Shown here one piece after another: positions 13,965-40,537 of a stretch of DNA of 64,000 nucleotides; the stretch's first letter is position 1; every line of letters starts with the position of its first letter. The DNA is from the human T2T-CHM13v2.0 reference genome, Homo sapiens. The translations under genes were made by a program, and so were the position numbers. A model generated the notes under the pieces. It was not told the origin of the DNA. It saw only the letters and a list, made by a program, of their open reading frames with translations, and did no database searches. The stretch lies in assembly GCF_009914755.1 (NCBI RefSeq), contig NC_060925.1; one strand, given 5' to 3'.

Positions 13965-14141
13965 GAAAACGTTATTTTCCTTATTTGGAAAATGGACATA
14001 ATGAAAATTACGGAAGAAAGTTTGTACAGGGTAACTCTGTAGAAGTTGCCTTCCTTCCTGGCTGTGGTCTTCCAAATGAGCAGACCACAGTTACATGTAT
14101 GGAGAATGGCTGGTCTCCTCCTTGCAGATGCATCCGTGTCA
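13965..14141 (+). pseudogene. Pseudogene exon 3: CFH-SCR7/CFHR3-SCR2-like, dead donor and lost cysteines
   Basis: [59 protein letters not shown]; Cys1>Arg, Cys2>Phe; donor is CTAAGT instead of GTAAGT; 177 nt. Confidence 0.93.
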
Positions 14142-17624: not shown

Positions 17625-21157
<3,533 letters not shown>

Positions 21158-21868
21158 TGTGTGTTTATTTTTATAAGAAATAGACAAACTGTTTTCCTGA
21201 GTGATCATATATTCTACCTTCACATACTCAGTGTATGCGAGTTCCAATTGTTCTACAACCTCACCAGCCTTTGAGATAGTGGTTGTTTTTCCATTAAGTT
21301 ATCCATTCTAATATGCGTGTAATGGTATCACATTCCCTAGTGACTAATGCTGCTGAGCATTTTCTTTGTACTTATTTACCATCTATGTACCTCCTTTAGT
21401 GAGGTACCTCCTTTAGTCCAAATTTTTTGCCCATTTTTCATTGGGTTGTTTGATTCTTTACTGAATTTTGAGACAACTTAATATATTGTGGCTACAAGTC
21501 CTTCACTGAGTAAATATTTTAGAAATATTTTTCTTGCATCTCTAGCTTTACTTTTATTTCTCTTAGCAGTCTCTTTCAATGAGCAAATGCATTTAATTTT
21601 GATGTTATCCAGTATATCAAATATTTCATTTATGGATTATGCTCTTTGTACCATCTAAAATTTCCTTGGCCTAAACCAAGGCCATGTACAGTTCTAGAAG
21701 TTAACATTTTACACATAGTTATATGATCGTTTTGAGTTAATTTTTGTATGAGGTATGAGAAATATGTTGAGGGTTTTTATTTTGCATTTGGATGCCTTAC
21801 TATTCCAGTATCCCTTGTTTAAAGGATTGTGTTTTCTTTATTGAATTGCCTTTGCTCCACTATTAAAT

Positions 21869-22797
<929 letters not shown>

Positions 22798-23430
22798 TTA
22801 TCTACAGTCCAGTGCCCCCCATGCCACTGGGGCTGACCCACAGACAAGCCCAGGCAGCTGCTTAGCTATGATGAACTAAGGGCCTTTGCTGGGGCCTTCT
22901 GTGTTGGCAGGGCAGTGCTGACTTTCAGCACATAAACTTGTCTGCAGCAGAGAAACCATTTGTGGTCTCAGAAGAAGTCTCAGGTGAGTTTTCTCAGAGC
23001 AGCTGGCACCCCATTTCCTTCTGTTTTTTTTTTTGTTGTTGTTGTTGTTTGTTTTTGTTTTTTCATCTTAGAGGCCTTGTGACCTATTTTGAGGTCTTGT
23101 TGATCCTCCCTAAGTCATAGGTAGGGCCTTATTTGAGGAGACCTCCCCTCAGATGGAAGGAGACTAGAGGGCATTGCTTGGGAGAAATGCTCTTGGATTT
23201 TGGAATCTGAAACTTTATATTTAAAGGTCTTTTGTTTGTGTTTGTCTTGTTATAGGTATTTATGTTTGTGGAGGTGTTCTCTGAAGAAATTACTAGTGGA
23301 AGAAATTACTAACTCAGGAAACTCTTCTTGTTTGTCTGGTCATTTATATTCACTTAGTCCTGAAGGAGTTGCTAGTGGAATCTCAGCAAGTCTAACTCAG
23401 GGTAACCGTCTGCTCTTCAATCCTTCCCAG

Positions 23431-23680
23431 AGTCCACCCACTGAACTCCTGACTGAAGGTCATCCCTCTCCAACTTGAGTAGATCAAATATGATGAGGGC
23501 TAATGGAACCAAGTTTGAGCCTTGCCAGGTCAATACTTGGGTTCTGAGTACGGTGACTAGTATCTGTGTTTGGTTACATGTATATAATTCCAGCCAGAAT
23601 GGGAAATGTTAATTCAGTTCCTCCCTGCAGCCCAGTGAGGGCTGGTGGCTTTGAGATTATTACTCTTTCTCTGCTGCAAA
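23431..23680 (+). pseudogene. Putative paralog of the FHL-1-specific terminal exon of CFH, within the ERV leader
   Basis: Acceptor TCCTTCCCAG at 23421-23430, then phase-1 AG TCC ACC CAC TGA (KSTH*, versus SFTL* in FHL-1); downstream GAAGGTCATCCCTCTCC..AATGGAACCAAGTTTGAG..CAGCCAGAATGGGAAATG..GCTGGTGGCTTTGAGATTATT matches my recollection of the FHL-1 3' UTR; correct position between SCR7- and SCR8-like exons. Confidence 0.75.
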
Positions 23681-24318
23681 TCCCACTGTCTCAGTGTATT
23701 GTTCTGTTGCTGTGCTGCAGGCATACAAATCTGACAGTCTTGTAACTATTTGTGGCAAGCCAGGTCGAGGTTACTCTCCTTGAGGGCATTTACTCACAGC
23801 CTAGTGCCCCCTTGCCACTGGAGCAGACCCAGAGACAAGCACTAGCAGCTGCTTAGTAGTTCTGATGAACTAATGGCTGTCCTTTAGTTCTCCCCATGTA
23901 ACCCACACTGTAATTTTGATGGGCTGCATCTTCCAAAATTGAAAAGCCTTTGTCTATCATTCCATAAAGCAAAACAAGATTATCTTATTTTTTAACATGG
24001 CTTGACCTCAATACCCATGGGGTTTGGGAGAACAGTGGCCACTGCATGGTTCTCATACATACAGTACCATCCTGTAGCTAGATTTGTTATGTATGAAGGA
24101 AGAGAAATGGGATAAAATCCCTTATGTATAATGTTTTATGTTGCTTTGGTAAAGTAGATCAATGTAGAAAAAACGGAAAAATTATGAATTAGCAAGAAAT
24201 TAAAACCTGTTTGGATTGATTTACAAGAGAAAGAACTTATGGAGGAGCTGCAGCAGCACTACTGGCACCTAAGCCAGAGTCCCCACCACCAAAAAGTCAC
24301 AAACCCAGAGCAACAGGA

Positions 24319-24616
24319 ATTTTTTTTTTTTTTTTGATGGAGTCTTGCTCTGTCGCCCAGGCTGGAGTGCAGTGGCACGATCTTGCTCACTACAACCTCA
24401 ACTGCCTGTGTTCAAGAGATTCTCCTACCTCAGCTTCCTGAGCAGCTGGGACTACAGACACGTGCCACCAAGCCCAGCTCATTTTTGTATTTTTAGTAGA
24501 GATGGGGTTTCACCATACTGGCGAGCCTGGTCTCGAACTCCTGACCTCAGGTGAACCACCCCCGCCTTGGCCTCCCAAAGTGCTGGGATTACAAGCGTGA
24601 GCCACCGTGCCCGGCC
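24319..24616 (-). mobile_element. AluS-like within ERV gag
   Basis: Antisense Alu dimer starting with a T-tract. Confidence 0.92.
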
Positions 24617-25899
24617 TTTATCTCTGCTTCTTCTACCCAACAGGTGACTCCTTTTAGCTAGGGTATCACTTATACCTAACAGGGGACTCAATTTAGCCAG
24701 GATTTCACTCTGGCTCTGAAAGGCAGTTTCCCCTATAACAACTACCTATAGGAGGTGATGCTGCCACAGCCCAGCCTATAGGATTTATGTGGGTTTATTC
24801 TCTGTTCTCCACTACCCACCTATTTAATTAGAAAAATAATATGCCTATTTATTGAGAAGATCTAAAGTTTATGGAAGAAAAAGGATAAAAAAAAAATCCA
24901 AAGCATATGGAGAATCTATTCTCCTCTGTATTTGCCACCCACAATCCTACCTGAGCAGATACCTAAAATTTGCTCAATATTTTGTTGAGTTCAGAGAAGC
25001 AAAGAATGGTTTTAGAAAAAGCTAAGGAAAAGGCTGATCTTATTCACACTGACTCTCCCAGTAATCCAGTAAGGGCAGCAGTAAGGGCAGCTGCTCAGAT
25101 TGCAGTTCCCACCTCTGTCCTGGGATAGAATATAAACACTGGAGATAGATCTAACCTCGAACACTATCAAAACTGCATTTTGGCCAGCCTCTGCAAGGGA
25201 GTGCCCAAGGAAAGCGGCCTCAGTAAGGTCCAGGAGATCAAGCAGAAGCCTAATGAGTGTGCCTTTGGAATTTTTAGAACAAGTCTTTGAAGCTTTCAGA
25301 CAATAAATGGATATTGACTCAGAAGCCTCAGAAAATTTAAAGTTAGCTAATACGATGTTTATCCAACAAAGTACCCCAGCTATGCAGGGAAAGTTACAAA
25401 ATGTAGATGAGGCTTTGGACATGTTTATGTCTCAATTAGTGAAGATTGTTTTTAATGTATTTACTGATCACAATTTTAAATAGTGAAAAATAAAAACACA
25501 AGGAATAATGAAGAGAAAAGCTGACTTGTTAGCTGTGGCTCTGAACCTAGTAGTCCCTGGACCACAACAAGGGCCCTCATCAGATGCTCCATCTAAGGTA
25601 GGACCACCTGGGCCCCCAAAAGCCAAAAAAAAGGGACATCCCATTGCAGGTCCCAAGCAGTGTGCTTACTGCAACAGGGGGGACACTGAAAGGAAAATTG
25701 CCCATGCCTTACAAAGCCTGATGTTAAACACAGTCAGTCTTCTGCCCACCAAATGCCTGGGATAGCTGGGGAGCTTGAGAGAGATACTGAAGAAAAAGAC
25801 CAGAAATGATGGCACCCAGGGGCTTATCCTGACTCAAACAACACCCTCCATATTTCCCACATGGGGCTTGAGATCCTGATGATGGTGAGAAATCAGCTT

Positions 25900-28800
25900 C
25901 TGGACTTTCTAGTAGACATGGTGCCACCTATTTGGTGTTAAATATCTGGTTGTCTAAACTTTCCTCAGAAACTATGAAGGTGACTGAAATCTCAGGAAAA
26001 ATACTGATGAGATCATTCCTCCCAATTTTGGATTCTCAGCTAGAGCAAGGTAATTTAAAGCAGTTTTTCTATACATGTGTGAATGTCCCATCCCTTTGTT
26101 GGGGCAAGTCCTCTTAACCAAACTAAATGCTAAGATTACTTTTTCTCTGAGATGATTGGACATCCAGGTGCCTTCAGACCAAGCATGTGCTCTGCAGGCC
26201 ACATTATTACAACTGGAAGTCCTTGAAAGTGCCCTCATCCCTGAAGAGATACTCCAAAATGTTAGTCCGGGAGCATGGGAAATGGAAGGCCAGGGAAAAC
26301 AAAAACTGCATCTCCAGTACAAGTCAAGTTTTGTGCAGGAGTAGCGCTGCCAAATCTAAAACAGTATCCTTTGAGAGAAAAGGCACAGCAATGCATTTAG
26401 CCTCTGCTAATGGCCTTCCTGCAATACAGGAAGACTTCATCATTCCCCATGTAATGTCCTAAAGACACAGTCCTGGGTCAATTGAAGGGTGGCATGCCTG
26501 CCATACTGTGTGGTATCATGTACGTGTTTGATGATATCTGTCGTGAGATACTTGGGTACCAGAACCTTTTCTTCTGTGTTACATATCTACTCAGGAATAT
26601 TGATTCGTACAGGATTTGAGGGCTACTAGCCAAATTTTCAAAGTCATTTATCTGGTGGTACCCGATGCTTATACATTATTCATGACTTTAACCAGTGAGT
26701 TGTACTGGTGTTCAGTCTTGGATTTGAAAGATGCCTTCATCTGTATTCCTCTGAGTCCAGAGTCCCATGAAGTGTTTGCCTTTGAATACGAAGACACTGA
26801 CACTAAAGCAAACCAACAGTATTGCTGGACAATGCTTCCTCAAGGCTTCAAAAACTCACTAATTGGTTGGGAGGAAATACGTGCTAAGGAGTTTGGGACC
26901 TTCGATTGAAAAATGGGACTTTGTTTATTTATGTTGATGACATATCCATAGCCCCCAAAACTAAGGCAAACTGACCAGAATACTATACTGACTTTACATT
27001 TCTTGTCTGAATTGGGATCCAAGGTATCCAAGAAAAAGGCACAAATCTTGAAACCCTCAGTTACATATCTTGGATTTGAACTTTCTCAGGAGCAGAGCAA
27101 TCTGCTTTCGGACTGCAGAGAAGCTCTTGTCAGGGTGGCCAGACTCAGGACATGGCAGCAGCTGTGAGGGGTTTTTAGGTATGGCTGGATGTTGCCTTAT
27201 TTGATTTTCTTATTTTGGGCTTATAGCAAAATCTCCCTATAAAGCCCTAAGACCAGACAGTTGACTTCTGGAATGGACCAAGGAATGTCAAAAGGCCTTT
27301 CTAACCATTAAATAAAAATTGTTAATGGCTCTGGCTACTGGTACCCCCTGAACTAAGAAAGCCATTTAATTTGTTCATATGTGAGAGAGAAGGGGTGAGT
27401 TTAGGAGTACTAACCCAAGACTTGGGGAATATCATGAGGCCTGTAGCCTACTTTTCAAAACAGCTGGACATTGTCCAAAACTGGGTTGGACTTCTTGCCT
27501 CTGAGCCATTGGTACCACTTGTGATCTTCTCCAGGAGGCAGAAGAGTTCACTTTGGGTTAACCTAGCACAGTACACACCCCACACTATGTATGCTCTTTG
27601 TCAGAGCAGAAGTGGATCTACTGACTTAATTCTAGAAGACTGAATAGATATCAGGCCATCTTCCTGCATAATCCCAGTGTTACTCTGAGAGCTGTTTCTA
27701 CTCTAAATCCTGCTAACTAAATCTATACATGATTGCTTATAAAGTATTGAGCAAGTTTATTCTATTCAACCAGACTTGACCAAAATTCCCTTTAAAAACC
27801 TGGACTTAGAAATATTCACTGAGGAAAGCAGCTTTATGAACCACAGACAACAGAAGGCTGAGTATGCTATGGTAACCCTGTGACAGATCCTAGATGCAGA
27901 GACACTCACTCTGGGTTCATCAGCACAAAAGGCAGAACTTAGAGTCCTAAACAGGGCATCCCAACTATGTAAAGACTCCTGAGTCACCATTTGCTCTTAT
28001 TCCAGGTATACTTTTATTGTTGTCCATGCTTATGGGGCTACTGGAAAGAAAGGGGATTCTTAACCTTTGGTGATTAAAAAAAATGATTAAGCATGCTAAA
28101 GAATCTTAGCCTGACTAAAGACAGTCTTGGTACCCAAGAAAGTAGCTATACTACACCACCCTGGACATCAGTGGATGGACAATTTGGTAGCAAGAAAAAA
28201 AATCACTAGGCAGACCAGGCCACTAAAGGGATGACCAGAGAAAAAATACCCAAAGCCTTGCTAATGCCATTAATCCCTGAAATAAACTTCAGCCTAAAAT
28301 CTATATCTATTTGGAAGAAGATCTAAAAGCACTTGATTGAGGCTTTGACTCCAATCAAAGAACCCAAAATGAGTAGATATGTAACACAGAAGAAAAGGTT
28401 CTTGTACCCAAGTATCTTACCACAGATATCATCAAACACATACATGATACCACGTAGTATGACAGGCATGCCACCCTTCAATTGATCCAGGACTACGTCT
28501 TTGGGACACACTTAAAGAAGGCTATCCAACAAATAATTCTAAAATACCTACTTTGTGCCCAGAACAATCTTAAGACTGGTCCTCCACCCCCAGTTCCAGG
28601 GATTCAAGCAAGAGGTGCAGGACAAATAGAGGACTGGCAAATTGATTTTAACGTGATGCCAAGGGTAGCAGGAAATTTTAAATACTTGCTGATATTTGTA
28701 GATACATTTTCAAGATAAATGAAAGCATTCCCCTGCAAGACCAAGAGAATGTATGAGGTTATAAAAGACTTGTTAGAGAAGATTACCCTCAGGTTTAGAT

Positions 28801-29410
28801 GGCCTGTCTTCATCCAGTGTGACTATAGTGCAACTTTTGTAGCCTAGGACACCATATATTCCAGGCCCTCAGCATAATCTGGAATCTTCATACAGCCTGG
28901 AGACTGAAGTCTACTGAGAAAACTGAAAAGTTAAATCATACTATAAAAAACAAAACAAACTTTTGCTAAGATTTGCCAAGAAACTAACAACCTGGAATAA
29001 AATTCTGTCCTTCTCCCTGCTCAGAGTAAGGGTGGTCCCTAAAAGTGGGCTTAAATAAGCCCTTTATAAATTTTATATGGGAGATTATTCTGTTCTCTTC
29101 TCAGACTAAGGAATGCCAATAATATACACATAAAGAAATTAGATATTATCAAATATATACAATCTTTAGGTCACACTTTAATTACTATTCATGAGTTTGT
29201 GGTTCCAGCAGATTGTGGTATCCAACTGACATTCTCTTGCGTCGCATCCAACCAAGAGACTGGATTCTGCTCAAGACCAGGAAAAGTCAACATCCTGAGG
29301 ACCACTTGAAAACACAGTGAAAGAGGCCATACAATGCATGACTGGTGACTCATTCCTCTGTTCGGGTGAAGGACTTAGACCCTGGATTCACCACAGCCAT
29401 ATAAAACCCA
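25900..29410 (+). pseudogene. ERV pro-pol remnant (protease, RT, RNase H, integrase) with stops and frameshifts
   Basis: ORF fragments 26616..26909 (VLDLKDAF, WTMLPQGFKNS), 27371..27643 (GVLTQ..RPVAYFSKQLD), 28482..28718 (WQIDF..KYLLIFVDTFS). Confidence 0.9.
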
Positions 29411-29849
29411 CCCCGCCAGACTCTAGTGCTATCAAGAAATGTAGAAAGGCCAACCCTATCTGAATGGATAAGTACATCTTTGATGGGCCTCAAATATCTT
29501 TTGAAGAAAAATATCATATAAATAACAAACTTAAAGAAAATTAGACAAAACACATGTCCTCTTGACAACTACAATAGTTACTTTGAGCATAATAGGAATT
29601 TTTGTTATAATTATTTTACATAAAAAGGTGAGATACCTTCCTGTCTATTCCGTGCCTTACTGAATGCTTAACCCATAGATTTACCTGGTCATTATAATTG
29701 CCTTGGTCATTACAATTGCTACACTTATAGATTTTACTTCACAATTGCCTTGGTCATTACAATTGCTAGACTTACAGATTTTCCAGACATCCTATACCAT
29801 GCTGACTTAGTCTCCTGCCTCCCATTATTTGGACATTCTAAAATTTAGA

Positions 29850-31110
29850 AATGGTCACTCTTGTTTTAAAACTTCTAATAAATTTCCTTTTACTGCAATG
29901 CCTAGACAGGGATAACAACACTGTAGTTAAACTGCTTCAAGGTATTGCCACTGGAAGAAACCTACCAGAATGATGGATCTGTCAGTAACTCCCTCAAACG
30001 ATTCAAAATAAGCATTTTCTGTTAGTCATACTTGTAACTGACTTTCTGTCCCAAATACGACTACCTATCTGCAACAGCTTCTTTCCATGGCTAATTTCCA
30101 GGTCCAACTGGTAGTACACCAAGAAATCACCACCCCACATCTCAATCTCTCTCTATATATCATAAATGGAAAGTCATTCCATAACATAGGCCCTCCATGG
30201 CCCATGGCATAATGGGTAGACAAATGCAGCCAGGAGAAGGGAAATAAAATTAAAAGTTTCTCTTTGCTGTGCCAAAAATATTTACAGTGGGGAATATCAC
30301 ACAAATTTTGGGGAGCCTGTAGAAAAAGATCCACAGTTCAATTCCATTTGTCTATATTCCCCATGAAAAAAAACCATCAATACATGCATCTTTGAGGGCT
30401 TCACTTGTGTGTCCCCTTGGCAAATGTTTATTTGTGACACAGGATCAGAACCTCCTCTGTTAGGACAAGCTCACTGGTGTCTCAATAACCTGTATATTGA
30501 GGGCTCTTACTTATTGGGACACTGGTCAGTCCATCCTAATGACTAAAGATTCTGCCCATTTTCCCACGGACTCCAAAAGCCACTGCCAGGCATATATCAA
30601 TATATCCGGTGACAGGGCCTTCTTGGGCATCACAATTCCTAGCTATGAAGTATACACTAACTGGGTCATGATCAGAAACTTACCGGCAACTTTAGAAATA
30701 ATTGCAAAAGAGGCTGCTAAGAACATTAAGGCTGAGAAAACTCTTTAAATTTACTTACCCAGATAGTTCTTAACAATGGAGCTGCACTTGATTTTCTCTT
30801 GGCTTTACCGAGGGGAGTCTGTACAGTGATCAATACCACCTGTTATACTTATATCAATGCTTCTGGTAAAATAAAAACCAAGCTAAAGAAAATATTTCAG
30901 CAGTCTCGCTGGAGACCATATGTCTACACCACAGACCCTAAGTCTGACTAGCTTTTTGAGCTTTTCCCCTCGATACTCCACGTTTTCCAGTCCATTTTCC
31001 AAGGGCTCTTAAAGTTCAAGCTCACAATTCTGTTTATAGGGCTTACAGTTTACATCATAGGCTGCTATTCAATTAAATATTACAATAAAACCATAGACTG
31101 AAGTACTAAC
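29850..31110 (+). pseudogene. ERV env remnant
   Basis: 30745-30870 reads LNLLTQIVLNNGAALDFLLALPRGVCTVINTTCYTYINASG: degenerate immunosuppressive domain and CX6C(C) motif. 5' boundary approximate. Confidence 0.82.
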
Positions 31111-31303
31111 ATGTTCATGCAGCACCTTCAGCTGGGTGTAACGACTTGCAGGTTGTTACAATACGGTTTCATTCCTCTAATCCCGACTCATTCTCTGACT
31201 GTGCCCCTTGTCAGCAAAAAGAAGCTAGAGTCGTCATTGCCTGTTTCCCACCATATTAGCTGTTACACCTCAAGATTAAGAAGGGATCAAGCCTGGGAGG
31301 AAC

Positions 31304-31816
31304 TGAAACTGTCCCTAAGAAAATTACATAAAATTGATTAAGGGGGGAAAATTCATCTACGCTTTCAGGACAAGCAGCAGTAATCATTAGGCCAGCTTTC
31401 CCTTTGTCCTACGTCTTTGTAGCTGGTCATGGATTACTACCACCCTAGGATAATGTAGCCCTTGTCACAAGACCTTTTGGTCCTTTTCTTTTCTACAGAT
31501 AAAATCTAAGACATTGTGAGACTATAATCTTTCTGCATGAGTTTCTCCTTTAGGTTCGGCATACCAAAAAACCTATCAACATACTCGTCAACAAGGCAAA
31601 ACCACATTTTCACAAAAAATTAAAGAAATTAGGCCAGGCATCATGGCACAGGTCTGTAGTACCAGCTGCTCAGGAGATCTGAGGTGGGAGGACCACTTGA
31701 GCCTGGGAGGCAGAAGTTGCAGTGAGCTGAGGTCACGCTACTGCAGTGAGGTCACGCTACTGAAATCCAGTTGGGCAACAGAGCAAGACCATGTCTCAAA
31801 AACAAAAAACAAATAT

Positions 31817-31852
<36 letters not shown>

Positions 31853-32169
31853 CAGCTGGTCTAAAGAGCCCAGCAAAAAGCTGACTCAGGAAATAATGCA
31901 GGTTCCACATCCCACATCCCGGTGACTTCATCCCCCTTACCCTGACCAATTGACAACCCAAATTTTCTAGCCCCTCACCCTCCATGATCCCCTTAAAGTC
32001 CCTTGCCCAGAACCCCTTCACAGAACAGATTTGGGGCTTGAGAATCCTCCCATTTCCTTGTTTGGTGCCCTTGCATTGATTAAAGTTTTTCTTTGCTGCA
32101 AACTCTACTGTCTCAGTGTATTGGTCTATTGCTAGACAGTGGGCATGTGAACCTGATAGTGTTATAACA
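31304..32169 (+). mobile_element. 3' LTR of the provirus, interrupted by an Alu monomer and (CA)n
   Basis: Purine tract GGGAGGAA before TGAAAC; ATTAAA at 32079-32084; ends TATAACA; Alu-derived insert and CA repeat at about 31585-31851. Confidence 0.82.
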
Positions 32170-32520
32170 AAATAGAATAGAAGCTATTTACAAAATCGAT
32201 CCATGCATGTGAGTCTATTTCTGGACACCATTTTCTCTTCTATTCTTCTGTGTGTTTATCCTTTCACCAGTGTCAGGAGATCCTTTTACTCACTGTAGCT
32301 TTTTCTAAGTCTTAAAATTTGGTAATGTGAGCTTTTCAACTTCTCTTATCTTTTGAAGAATTGTGTAGCTATTTTAGTCCCTTTGCCTTTCTGTATGACT
32401 TTAGAATCAGCATGTCCATATGTGTAAAACATTGTGCTTGGTTATTCACTAGAAATGGGACACACTCATAGATGAATCTGGGGAGAACTGACATGTAACA
32501 GTATTAAATTGTTCAGTCCA

Positions 32521-32874
<354 letters not shown>

Positions 32875-33778
32875 TTACACTAGTTTTTTTTGTGTGATTT
32901 TCAGCATACAGATCCTGTATTTTATTAGATTTATCACTAAATATTTTGTTTTTCATGCTTCAGCTACAAATTCAATTTGTTTAATAGATATAATTTATTA
33001 ATGCTACCTAATCCTTCTTCAGTGAGCTGTGACAGTTTGTGGCTTTAGTAAGTTTCTAGTTCATTCAAGTTATTGAATTTATTGACATGGCATTATTCAG
33101 AATATTTCTTTATTTTTCTTTTAATATATGTAAAAACCATAATGATGTCATTTCTGTCATTGCTGTTATAAGCAATTTGTGTCATCTTTTTTTCTGATTC
33201 AGTCTGTCTAAGGTTTCTCAATTATAGAGATCTAAAATAACAAGCTTTTGGTTTCCTTGTTTATATACATATTTACTTATTATTTCATCTCTGATCTTTA
33301 TTGTATTATTTCTTCTGCTTACTTTGAGATTAATTTTTTCTACTTTTTCTAATATCTAATGGTAGAGGCTAAGGTTACTGAAGTGGAACACTGCCATTTT
33401 CTGTCCCAGGTATTTAGTGACACCAATTTATTTCATACTGCTCTAGTGTCATTCCACAACTTTTGATATGTAGTTTGGCTGGAGTAGGGAGTTTGGCTGG
33501 AGTAGGGTGAGTATACCATAAAAGATTTACTGTGTTTTTTGGAGGCAGGTGGGGAGAGGGAATTATTGCCAAAAGGTGGGTTATTTTATGTATTTATTTT
33601 TTTAACTCCACTCTGTATTTTAGCTAAGAGAAGCAGCTTTGGAACTTCTGAAGTCTGTACATCTCTGTGGCCCCCAAGGATTACTTGTTTTAAATTTTGT
33701 TTTAATAGTCTAAGTTTATCATGGGTCAACTTGATTCTTTCAAGGCTTATTTTTAAGCTTTTAAAAGGCTGGTTTAGC

Positions 33779-40354: not shown

Positions 40355-40537
40355 AAACATGTTCCAAATCAAGTATCGATATTGAGAATGGGTTTATTTC
40401 TGAATCTCAGTATATATATGACTTACATAAACAAGCAAAATATCAATGCAAACTAGGATATATAACAGCAGATGGTGAAACATCAGGATCAATTACATGT
40501 CAGAAAAATGGATGGTCAGCTCAACCCACATGCGTTA
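40355..40537 (+). pseudogene. Pseudogene exon: CFH-SCR8-like, open frame, intact splice sites
   Basis: ttttag|AA ACA TGT...; [61 protein letters not shown]; 4 Cys and Trp retained; donor GTAATT; 183 nt, phase 1-1. Confidence 0.92.

What the first reader, a model, noticed from the sequence alone, without database searches (positions are those of the whole stretch)
23421..23690. Paralog of the FHL-1 terminal exon lies inside an ERV leader: FHL-1 may be a retroviral exaptation
Seen: between the SCR7-like and SCR8-like exons there is an acceptor (TCCTTCCCAG, 23421-23430) followed by a phase-1 four-codon tail and TGA (A|AG TCC ACC CAC TGA). It lies between the 5' LTR and the Gag start (ATG GGA AAT at 23599) of a sense-oriented provirus. 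Established: FHL-1 is CFH SCR1-7 plus SFTL from an alternative terminal exon at this relative position, and mice lack FHL-1. Recalled, not computed: the following ~230 nt match the FHL-1 3' UTR. Inference: the acceptor, tail, stop, 3' UTR and poly(A) site of FHL-1 all come from this provirus, and this window holds a duplicated fossil of the event. I cannot verify whether this has been published.
Basis: partly seen in the sequence, partly recalled or inferred. Interest (0 to 1): 0.88.

Follow-up and report, generated by a model that had tools for sequence, protein, structure and literature searches.

The report
FHL-1 terminal exon is retrovirus-derived
The short extra exon that turns complement factor H into its truncated form FHL-1 appears to be built wholly from an ancient endogenous retrovirus, and this window holds a dead duplicate of that exon.

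Summary
TCCTTCCCAG (23421-23430) is followed by AG TCC ACC CAC TGA. It lies in the leader of a sense-oriented, decayed class-I provirus, upstream of a gag-like ATG at 23599. The window is a 29-kb paralog of CFH (K2P 0.104). The matching CFH site reads CCCAG|GC TTT ACC CTC TGA, the SFTL tail of FHL-1, between the SCR7 and SCR8 exons.

The exon is retroviral. In 28 other genomic copies of this leader, 19 keep the AG and 22 keep a stop at the same codon. All 28 have 16-18 pyrimidines in the 20 nt upstream. The first poly(A) hexamer after the CFH stop (ATTAAA, +211 nt) aligns with the LTR family's own hexamer. It sits in an extra R-U5-PBS-leader piece placed in gag, found only in the CFH/CFHR pair (0 of 25 other copies).

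The window copy is dead: hexamer lost, SCR7-like donor GT changed to CT, two cysteine codons lost. The five tail differences all lie on the CFH branch.

Not tested here: the FHL-1 mRNA 3' end, the repeat family name, and other species. Ten literature searches found no paper making this link. This is a new member of a known kind, of moderate to high interest.

The parts
13965..14137 (+). SCR7-like exon of the CFHR3-like pseudogene. It is the paralog of CFH exon 9. The donor GT is changed to CT and two cysteine codons are lost.
   Evidence: alignment to CFH C1:196036373 onward: 90.6% over 233 nt. CFH ends GTC A|GTAAGT, the window ends GTC A|CTAAGT. TGT is changed to CGT and TGC to TTC.
21877..22448 (+). 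5' LTR of the provirus. Its poly(A) hexamer is decayed to AGTAAG.
   Evidence: Direct repeat with 31317-32170. The R-U5 end aligns with LTR copies genome-wide. Homology of the left flank to an older dispersed repeat ends at 21855-21871.
22461..22775 (+). Alu inserted just after the LTR end, inside the PBS-like TGGCAAG. It is shared with CFH.
   Evidence: the CFH_5LTR row also runs into an Alu. It lies inside the contiguous block 20186-24320.
22776..23598 (+). ERV leader. It includes a splice-donor-like CAG|GTGAGT near 22981.
   Evidence: window 22959-23672 aligns with L007 between its LTR and gag. 23060-23640 aligns with all 8 copies fetched first.
23411..23430 (+). Pyrimidine tract (17 of 20) and AG. 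This is the paralog of the FHL-1 exon 10 acceptor.
23431..23444 (+). Paralog of the FHL-1 coding tail: AG TCC ACC CAC TGA ((K)STH-stop). CFH has GC TTT ACC CTC TGA ((S)FTL-stop).
23445..23680 (+). Paralog of the FHL-1 3' UTR. It consists of the distal leader, the first 15 gag codons and the start of the ectopic R region. The hexamer site at about 23659-23662 lost 2 bp (ATTATT--ACTC).
   Evidence: There is no AATAAA or ATTAAA before 24199.
23599..23644 (+). Start of gag (ATG GGA AAT ...), interrupted after about 15 codons.
   Evidence: ATG is kept in 21 of 28 other copies. A Gag_p30 match lies downstream in the homologous L007 copy.
23645..23919 (+). Ectopic 275-nt R-U5-PBS-leader piece inside gag, flanked on both sides by GGGCTG. 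R-U5 ends at about 23747 and the PBS-like TGGCAAGCCAGGTCGAGG lies at 23753-23770.
   Evidence: It matches 22342-22469 and 22778-22883. LTR copies genome-wide match only 23643-23746. It is absent from 25 of 25 other copies and present in CFH.
23920..25800 (+). Rest of gag, decayed. It carries a window-specific Alu at about 24320-24620.
   Evidence: L007 homology 23920-24233 and 24669-25348. (Gag_p30 in L007). (the Alu breaks collinearity with CFH).
26604..27167 (+). Reverse transcriptase remnants.
   Evidence: Pfam RVT_1 E 7.9e-9, 35.9 bits, above the cut-off. A second piece scores E 0.0048, below the cut-off.
30736..30951 (+). Env transmembrane remnant.
   Evidence: Pfam TLV_coat E 5e-4, 19.3 bits, below the 22.5 cut-off.
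31312..32168 (+). 3' LTR. It holds an Alu piece and a CA repeat, and its hexamer ATTAAA is intact.
   Evidence: Homology to the older flanking repeat resumes at 32207-32210.
40355..40533 (+). SCR8-like exon of the pseudogene, the paralog of CFH exon 11.
   Evidence: Hub annotation. The translation is open. It is collinear with CFH.

Best explanation
Window 23421-23690 is the CFHR-side copy of CFH exon 10, the terminal exon that makes FHL-1. It was carried along when about 29 kb of CFH (SCR6 to SCR8 with introns) was duplicated. In both copies the exon lies inside an old, sense-oriented class-I (gamma-like) provirus that had inserted between the SCR7 and SCR8 exons before the duplication. The provirus supplied all the parts of the exon. 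(1) The distal leader supplied a pyrimidine tract plus AG. (2) Four codons later, in the phase left by SCR exons, it supplied a stop. (3) The rest of the leader and the first 15 gag codons became the 3' UTR. (4) A 275-nt extra copy of R-U5-PBS-leader sitting in gag supplied the poly(A) signal; its retroviral ATTAAA and GT-rich U5 lie 211 nt after the stop. Shown here: paralogy, the ERV origin of each element, the uniqueness of the extra R-U5 piece, and the decay of the window copy. Inferred: that FHL-1 mRNA is cleaved just after that ATTAAA, and that without the extra piece a transcript spliced into the leader would have no nearby poly(A) site. After the duplication the CFH copy changed 5 of the 11 tail bases to give SFTL. 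The window copy stayed close to the usual ERV reading and then lost its hexamer, and the upstream exon lost its donor.
For: Paralogy. Window 12293-41246 is collinear with CFH C1:196034720-196061070. K2P is 0.104 over 8 blocks and 20,811 aligned nt. Only two copies in the genome exceed 80% identity, the window itself and CFH.

The CFH copy reads TTTCCCAG|GC TTT ACC CTC TGA. Exon 9 ends GTC A|GTAAGT, giving ...IRV-SFTL-stop. The exon starts 49,331 nt from the annotated CFH start. Papers state that exon 10 encodes SFTL and the FHL-1 3' UTR (passages of PMC7593401 and PMC9923232).

ERV origin. The segment matches dispersed copies at 68-77% identity: 40 were scored out of 314 first-look candidates. 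Of 28 fetched copies, 19 have AG at the acceptor column, 22 have a stop at the same codon, and 14 have both. All 28 have 16-18 pyrimidines in the 20 nt upstream. Four real copies (L010, L019, L026, L033) read AG ACC ACC CAT TGA.

Context. In 25 of 28 copies the leader runs straight into the gag continuation. In L007 the order is LTR, leader, then Gag_p30 (E 7.7e-8) and RVT_1. The window itself has RVT_1 at E 7.9e-9.

Poly(A). The CFH ATTAAA at C1:196047942 is the first hexamer after the stop; the next AATAAA is 1,599 nt after the stop. It aligns with the hexamer column of the LTR R region, where 18 of 28 LTR rows have ATTAAA and 1 has AATAAA. After collapsing six near-identical rows this is 14 of 23.

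The 275-nt piece is present in CFH and the window, and in 0 of the 25 other copies where both sides were found.

Decay of the window copy.
Against: No FHL-1 mRNA, poly(A)-site or RNA-seq data could be consulted. Use of the ATTAAA rests on its position and on a recalled mRNA size of about 1.8 kb.

No repeat library was on hand, so the family is unnamed. 'Leader' is defined only by position relative to the LTR end, the PBS-like site and gag.

Gag was not detected by Pfam in the window itself, only in the homologous copy L007. TLV_coat and rve fall below their cut-offs.

The two LTRs differ by K2P 0.35-0.38. That is over three times the CFH/CFHR distance and about as much as unrelated family members differ. 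No target-site duplication was found. So a simple single-provirus history is not proven, although the whole unit interrupts one older repeat.

Six of the first 8 leader copies (L003, L005, L006, L008, L009, L010) share upstream sequence with one another that differs from the window's LTR and 5' leader. None of the 8 has the R-region motif within 4 substitutions. The leader is therefore shared by more than one subfamily.

Nine of 28 copies lack the AG and 6 of 28 lack the stop. The state of these sites at insertion is therefore likely, not certain.
Confidence: 0.85

Rival explanations
1. The direction is reversed. An ancestral retrovirus picked up a piece of CFH (exon 10) and spread it, so the ERV copies derive from the gene rather than the gene's exon from the ERV.
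For: Sequence similarity alone does not give a direction.
Against: The segment is an internal part of a 600-nt leader that is contiguous with gag in 25 of 28 copies on many chromosomes. No SCR sequence accompanies it in any of the 8 copies that one search compared with window 21500-33000. In CFH the exon is embedded in a full LTR-gag-pol-env-LTR unit that interrupts an older repeat. The CFH tail is the odd one out: at its 5 differing sites, 17-27 of 28 copies agree with the window and 0-5 with CFH.
Confidence: 0.02
2. The exon body is ERV-derived, but FHL-1 mRNA ends at some other site. The LTR-type ATTAAA would then be a coincidence and the extra R-U5 piece irrelevant.
Against: ATTAAA at +211 nt is the first canonical hexamer after the stop; the next AATAAA is 1,599 nt after the stop. 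It is followed by CTGCAAA and a GT-rich run, as in the family's R-U5. The paralogs of the fragment differ less (K2P 0.072) than the paralogs of the 5' R-U5-PBS-leader (0.166), which is compatible with constraint.
Confidence: 0.1
3. The window copy is still a working terminal exon, giving a truncated CFHR3-like product.
For: The AG, the pyrimidine tract and the in-phase TGA are intact.
Against: The donor of the upstream SCR7-like exon is CT instead of GT and two structural cysteine codons are gone. The hexamer lost 2 bp and the next ATTAAA is at 24199, 755 nt after the stop. RefSeq calls the gene a pseudogene and does not use this site (hub annotation).
Confidence: 0.04

Closest known systems
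CFH exon 10, the FHL-1 terminal exon
   Same: It is the direct paralog. It holds the same place between the SCR7 and SCR8 exons and has the same acceptor, phase and stop position. Identity is 87.9% over 281 nt.
   Different: The tail codons differ at 5 of 11 bases ((K)STH against (S)FTL). The poly(A) hexamer is destroyed and the upstream donor is destroyed.
LTR-derived alternative terminal exons and poly(A) sites, such as the human leptin receptor short form with a HERV-K LTR-encoded C-terminus, and HHLA2/HHLA3 using HERV-H LTR poly(A) signals (recalled from Kapitonov & Jurka 1999 and Mager et al. 1999; neither paper was seen)
   Same: A sense-oriented retroviral element in an intron supplies an acceptor, a few C-terminal residues, a stop and the poly(A) signal, which yields a truncated isoform.
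   Different: Here the acceptor and stop lie in the proviral leader, not in an LTR. The poly(A) signal comes from an ectopic internal R-U5 copy inside gag rather than from a flanking or solo LTR.
Transposon exonization in immune genes, such as IFNAR2-S with an Alu-derived terminal exon (bioRxiv 10.1101/2023.09.11.557241; passages seen)
   Same: A TE-derived terminal exon makes a shortened immune regulator. That preprint counts 470 such events in 355 immune genes.
   Different: The element class differs (ERV against Alu). CFH is not named in the preprint's main text. Its supplementary tables are closed, so CFH may be listed there.

Membership tests
Paralog of CFH exon 10 (FHL-1 terminal exon) | Same position between the SCR7-type and SCR8-type exons inside a collinear duplication | tested here: met
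Paralog of CFH exon 10 (FHL-1 terminal exon) | Acceptor AG, phase-1 junction and a stop after four codons | tested here: met
Paralog of CFH exon 10 (FHL-1 terminal exon) | Working poly(A) hexamer about 210 nt after the stop, and a working donor on the preceding exon | tested here: not met
   2-bp deletion in the hexamer. Donor GT changed to CT. The window copy is therefore a fossil, not a functional member.
TE-derived alternative terminal exon (exaptation), applied to CFH exon 10 | Exon sequence homologous to dispersed copies of a mobile element in the same orientation as the gene | tested here: met
TE-derived alternative terminal exon (exaptation), applied to CFH exon 10 | Splice acceptor, stop and poly(A) signal all inside the element | tested here: met
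   Acceptor and stop. Hexamer aligned to the LTR hexamer column.
TE-derived alternative terminal exon (exaptation), applied to CFH exon 10 | Transcript evidence that these sites are used | not testable with these tools
   Only statements in papers: exon 10 encodes SFTL and the 3' UTR (PMC7593401 and PMC9923232, passages). No mRNA or 3'-end data were held.
TE-derived alternative terminal exon (exaptation), applied to CFH exon 10 | Isoform restricted to lineages that carry the insertion | not testable with these tools
   No other mammalian genome was on hand. PMC7593401 (passage) cites Dopler et al. 2019 (not held) that FHL-1-type gene structure is not found before Old World monkeys.
Class-I (gamma-like) endogenous provirus | Two LTRs in direct orientation bounding gag-pol-env | tested here: met
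   LTR repeats. RVT_1. Gag_p30 in the homologous copy L007. However, the LTRs differ by K2P 0.35-0.38.
Class-I (gamma-like) endogenous provirus | Primer binding site after U5 and a target-site duplication | tested here: inconclusive
   A TGG-initiated 18-mer follows the LTR end in the ectopic copy, and its start follows the 5' LTR before the Alu. The tRNA was not assigned and no clear duplication was seen at the ends.
Class-I (gamma-like) endogenous provirus | Gamma-type env | tested here: inconclusive
   TLV_coat E 5e-4, below the curated cut-off.

The most novel reading that the evidence does not exclude
FHL-1 exists because one malformed provirus landed in sense orientation in CFH intron 9. 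This provirus carried a second R-U5 copy, with its poly(A) signal, inside gag. Its leader already held a latent acceptor and an in-phase stop, and the extra R-U5 placed a retroviral poly(A) site 211 nt further on. A seven-SCR soluble regulator therefore became available in one step or a few steps. The tail was then reshaped to SFTL by a burst of five changes on the CFH branch after the CFH-to-CFHR duplication. This origin has not been described in the complement literature.
Probability: 0.45. Interest if true: 0.78.

Novelty: new member of a known kind. Interest (0 to 1): 0.62.

Why it matters
[quoted passage not shown] Reviews call its late evolutionary appearance and its absence from mice unexplained (PMC7593401, passage).

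A retroviral origin gives a concrete cause for that lineage restriction. It also names the exact DNA elements (acceptor, hexamer, GT-rich U5) that set the FH to FHL-1 ratio. That ratio can then be tested by comparative genomics and by deleting or blocking those elements.

It also adds a medically important case to the list of immune isoforms made by mobile elements, with an unusual source for the poly(A) signal.

Tried and rejected
- **Literature.** The terms combined FHL-1, CFH or factor H with retrovir, endogenous retrovirus, transposable element, exonization, LTR and polyadenylation. None returned a paper linking the FHL-1 exon to a mobile element. Where 'retrovir' occurred in the two top hits, it was in reference lists only. 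Male et al. 2000 (the 221-kb CFH sequence paper), Dopler et al. 2019 and Cantsilieris et al. 2018 are not held and may bear on novelty and dating.
- **Pfam on the window's own gag region.** This gave nothing, so a homologous copy was used instead.
- **An R-region motif upstream of the leader.** A 24-nt motif was sought in 8 other copies with up to 4 substitutions. It was found in 0 of 8. Most of those copies carry a different upstream part that they share among themselves.
- **The older repeat around the provirus.** Its boundaries were sought inside the window without result. They were then found with genome copies.
- **Mis-mapped segment.** In one search one segment mapped to the ectopic fragment instead of the CFH 5' LTR. 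The four distances of that call that involve 'CFH_five' or the fragments were discarded and recomputed. The LTR5-LTR3 value stands.
- **Not attempted.** Naming the tRNA of the PBS and naming the ERV family were not attempted, because no repeat library was available.

Full report
**The observation**

One search shows TCCTTCCCAG at 23421-23430, followed by AGTCCACCCACTGA at 23431-23444. ATG GGA AAT starts at 23599.

The site lies between two exons of the annotated CFHR3-like pseudogene. The exon at 13965-14137 is 90.6% identical over 233 nt to the CFH exon that encodes SCR7 with the Y402 codon. The exon at 40355-40533 translates as an open SCR.

**Paralogy with CFH**

The window's own assembly is held. 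A 501-nt query around the site found only two places above 80% identity: itself and chr1:196047590-196048085, at 90% identity, inside CFH.

Window 12293-41246 is collinear with CFH 196034720-196061070. The K2P distance is 0.104 over 8 blocks and 20,811 aligned nt.

At the matching CFH place the sequence reads TTTCCCAG|GC TTT ACC CTC TGA. CFH exon 9 ends GTC A|GTAAGT. The junction therefore gives ...IRV-S-F-T-L-stop. Papers state that SFTL and the FHL-1 3' UTR are encoded by exon 10 (PMC7593401 and PMC9923232, passages only).

The exon begins 49,331 nt after the annotated CFH start, 11.1 kb after exon 9 and about 12.4 kb before the SCR8 exon. So the window segment is the paralog of the FHL-1 terminal exon.

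**The provirus**

Direct repeats mark a 5' LTR (about 21877-22448) and a 3' LTR (about 31312-32168). The following lie between them, all on the + strand:
- RVT_1, E 7.9e-9, above the cut-off.
- A weak integrase match.
- A TLV_coat match, E 5e-4, below the cut-off.

Pfam found no gag in the window itself. The homologous copy L007 (chr3) has, in order, LTR, leader, a Gag_p30 match (E 7.7e-8, above the cut-off) and RVT_1.

The whole unit interrupts an older dispersed repeat. The two halves of that repeat are contiguous, within 20-28 nt, in the three of four fetched copies where both halves matched (L068-L070); L071 gave no right-half match. The same provirus lies in CFH, so it inserted before the duplication.

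**The exon is retroviral sequence**

The 23310-23645 stretch matches many dispersed copies at 68-77% identity: 40 were scored out of 314 first-look candidates. I fetched 28 of them and aligned them.
- AG stands at the acceptor column in 19 of 28.
- A stop stands at the same fourth codon in 22 of 28.
- Both are present in 14 of 28.
- The 20 nt upstream hold 16-18 pyrimidines in all 28.
- Four real copies (L010, L019, L026, L033) read AG ACC ACC CAT TGA.
- The gag-like ATG is kept in 21 of 28.

In 25 of 28 copies the leader end abuts the gag continuation directly. In the other 3 the gag side was not found. The acceptor, the pyrimidine tract and the in-phase stop are thus common properties of this ERV leader. 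They are not inventions of CFH.

**The poly(A) signal**

In CFH the first canonical hexamer after the stop is ATTAAA at 196047942, 211 nt downstream. The next AATAAA is 1,599 nt after the stop.

That hexamer lies in a 275-nt piece (window 23645-23919) that interrupts gag after about 15 codons and is flanked by GGGCTG on both sides. The piece matches the end of the 5' LTR together with what follows it (22342-22469 and 22778-22883). LTR copies across the genome match only its first about 104 nt and stop at the ...TGTAACA LTR end. The piece is therefore R-U5, then a TGG-initiated PBS-like 18-mer, then about 150 nt of early leader.

The CFH ATTAAA aligns with the hexamer column of the LTR family. 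There, 18 of 28 rows have ATTAAA and 1 has AATAAA. After collapsing six near-identical pericentromeric rows this is 14 of 23. The hexamer is followed by CTGCAAA and a GT-rich U5.

The extra piece is present in CFH and in the window, and in 0 of the 25 other copies where both flanks were found. How it arose is not settled. It could be a reverse-transcription error before integration or a later duplication at the GGGCTG microhomology.

That FHL-1 mRNA ends just after this hexamer is an inference. No transcript data were available.

**The window copy is a fossil**

Its hexamer lost 2 bp (ATTATT--ACTC). The next ATTAAA is at 24199. The SCR7-like exon's donor is CT instead of GT, and two cysteine codons are lost.

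**What changed in CFH**

For every site where the two paralogs differ, I counted how many of the 28 other copies agree with each.
- In the 11 coding bases of the tail, all 5 differences fall on the CFH branch: 17-27 copies agree with the window and 0-5 with CFH.
- In the 201 nt that follow, 6 differences fall on the CFH branch, 10 on the window branch and 6 are ambiguous. There are also 3 indel columns.

Five of 11 against 6 of 201 gives Fisher p = 5.4e-5. Four of the five changes lie within five adjacent bases, so one complex mutation could explain most of them. Selection on the tail is a possibility, not a result.

**Ages**

| Comparison | K2P |
|---|---|
| CFH against window (paralogs) | 0.104 |
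| Ectopic piece against the 5' R-U5-PBS-leader, all four within- and cross-copy pairs | 0.234-0.257 |
| The two LTRs | 0.35-0.38 |

Because all four ectopic-piece comparisons agree, there is no sign of later gene conversion. Taken at face value, the provirus is several times older than the CFHR duplication, and the extra piece lies in between.

The stretches are short and LTRs decay fast. The LTR distance is also as large as that between unrelated family members. This remains unexplained.

The two paralogs of the ectopic piece differ less (0.072) than the two paralogs of the 5' copy (0.166). This is compatible with constraint on the CFH poly(A) region.

**Comparison with what is known**

TE- and LTR-derived terminal exons and poly(A) sites are a known kind. 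I recall the leptin receptor short form and HHLA2/3 as examples, but did not see those papers. For IFNAR2-S I saw passages of the preprint. Two features are unusual here: the proviral leader is used for the acceptor and stop, and an ectopic internal R-U5 is used for polyadenylation.

Reviews say that mice have no FHL-1 (PMC10894998 and PMC7593401, passages). One cites an in-silico analysis (Dopler et al. 2019, not held) that FHL-1-type gene structure is not found before Old World monkeys. The provirus gives a candidate cause for this, but no other species could be examined here.

None of the ten full-text searches found a paper linking the exon to a mobile element. Subscription papers and closed supplements may hold such a link, and a RepeatMasker track would show it at a glance.

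**Verdict**

This is a new member of a known kind. Interest is 0.62.

Noticed in passing
window 1-44000 and upstream (hub annotation): CFH ends 12 kb before the window, and the next genes are the CFHR3-like pseudogene and CFHR4. CFHR3 and CFHR1 are not listed between them. This fits the common 84-kb CFHR3-CFHR1 deletion haplotype described in PMC1828695 (passages). It was not checked by searching for CFHR1 or CFHR3 sequence.
   Followed up: partly
window 21877-22448 against 31312-32168 (and the CFH counterparts): The two LTRs of the provirus differ by K2P 0.35 (window) and 0.38 (CFH). That is more than three times the CFH/CFHR paralog distance and about as much as unrelated family copies differ. 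They do not look like sister LTRs of one young integration, and no target-site duplication was seen.
   Followed up: partly
window 26455-26593 and 28370-28508: An inverted repeat of 139 nt, 92% complementary, lies inside pol. The upstream arm is a reversed copy of the integrase N-terminal region. Collinearity with CFH breaks exactly there (134 nt in the window against 31 nt in CFH), so it may be specific to the window copy.
   Followed up: partly
window 24320-24620; CFH C1:196050098-196050798: Alu insertions differ between the paralogs. There is one in the window's gag that CFH lacks, and about 700 nt of Alu in CFH that the window lacks. The Alu at 22461-22775, inside the PBS-like site, is shared by both.
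   Followed up: no
window 22981-22989: A splice-donor-like CAG|GTGAGT lies in the early leader. The RefSeq pseudogene model places a 4-nt 'exon' (22984-22987) on it, which looks like a modelling artefact. Together with the latent acceptor at 23430, it would outline a 450-nt leader intron in the ERV family. This was not tested.
   Followed up: no
loci L003, L005, L006, L008, L009, L010: These copies share the 23060-23640 leader and gag with the window. Upstream they carry about 1 kb of sequence that they share with one another but not with the window's LTR and 5' leader. The same internal sequence is therefore paired with at least two different upstream parts.
   Followed up: partly
loci L046-L051 (chr9 and chr2): Six LTR copies are identical or nearly so over the stretch compared. 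They lie at chr9:40-80 Mb and chr2:95 Mb, which suggests recent segmental duplications (my inference from their near-identity, not tested), so I counted them as one when tallying hexamers.
   Followed up: no
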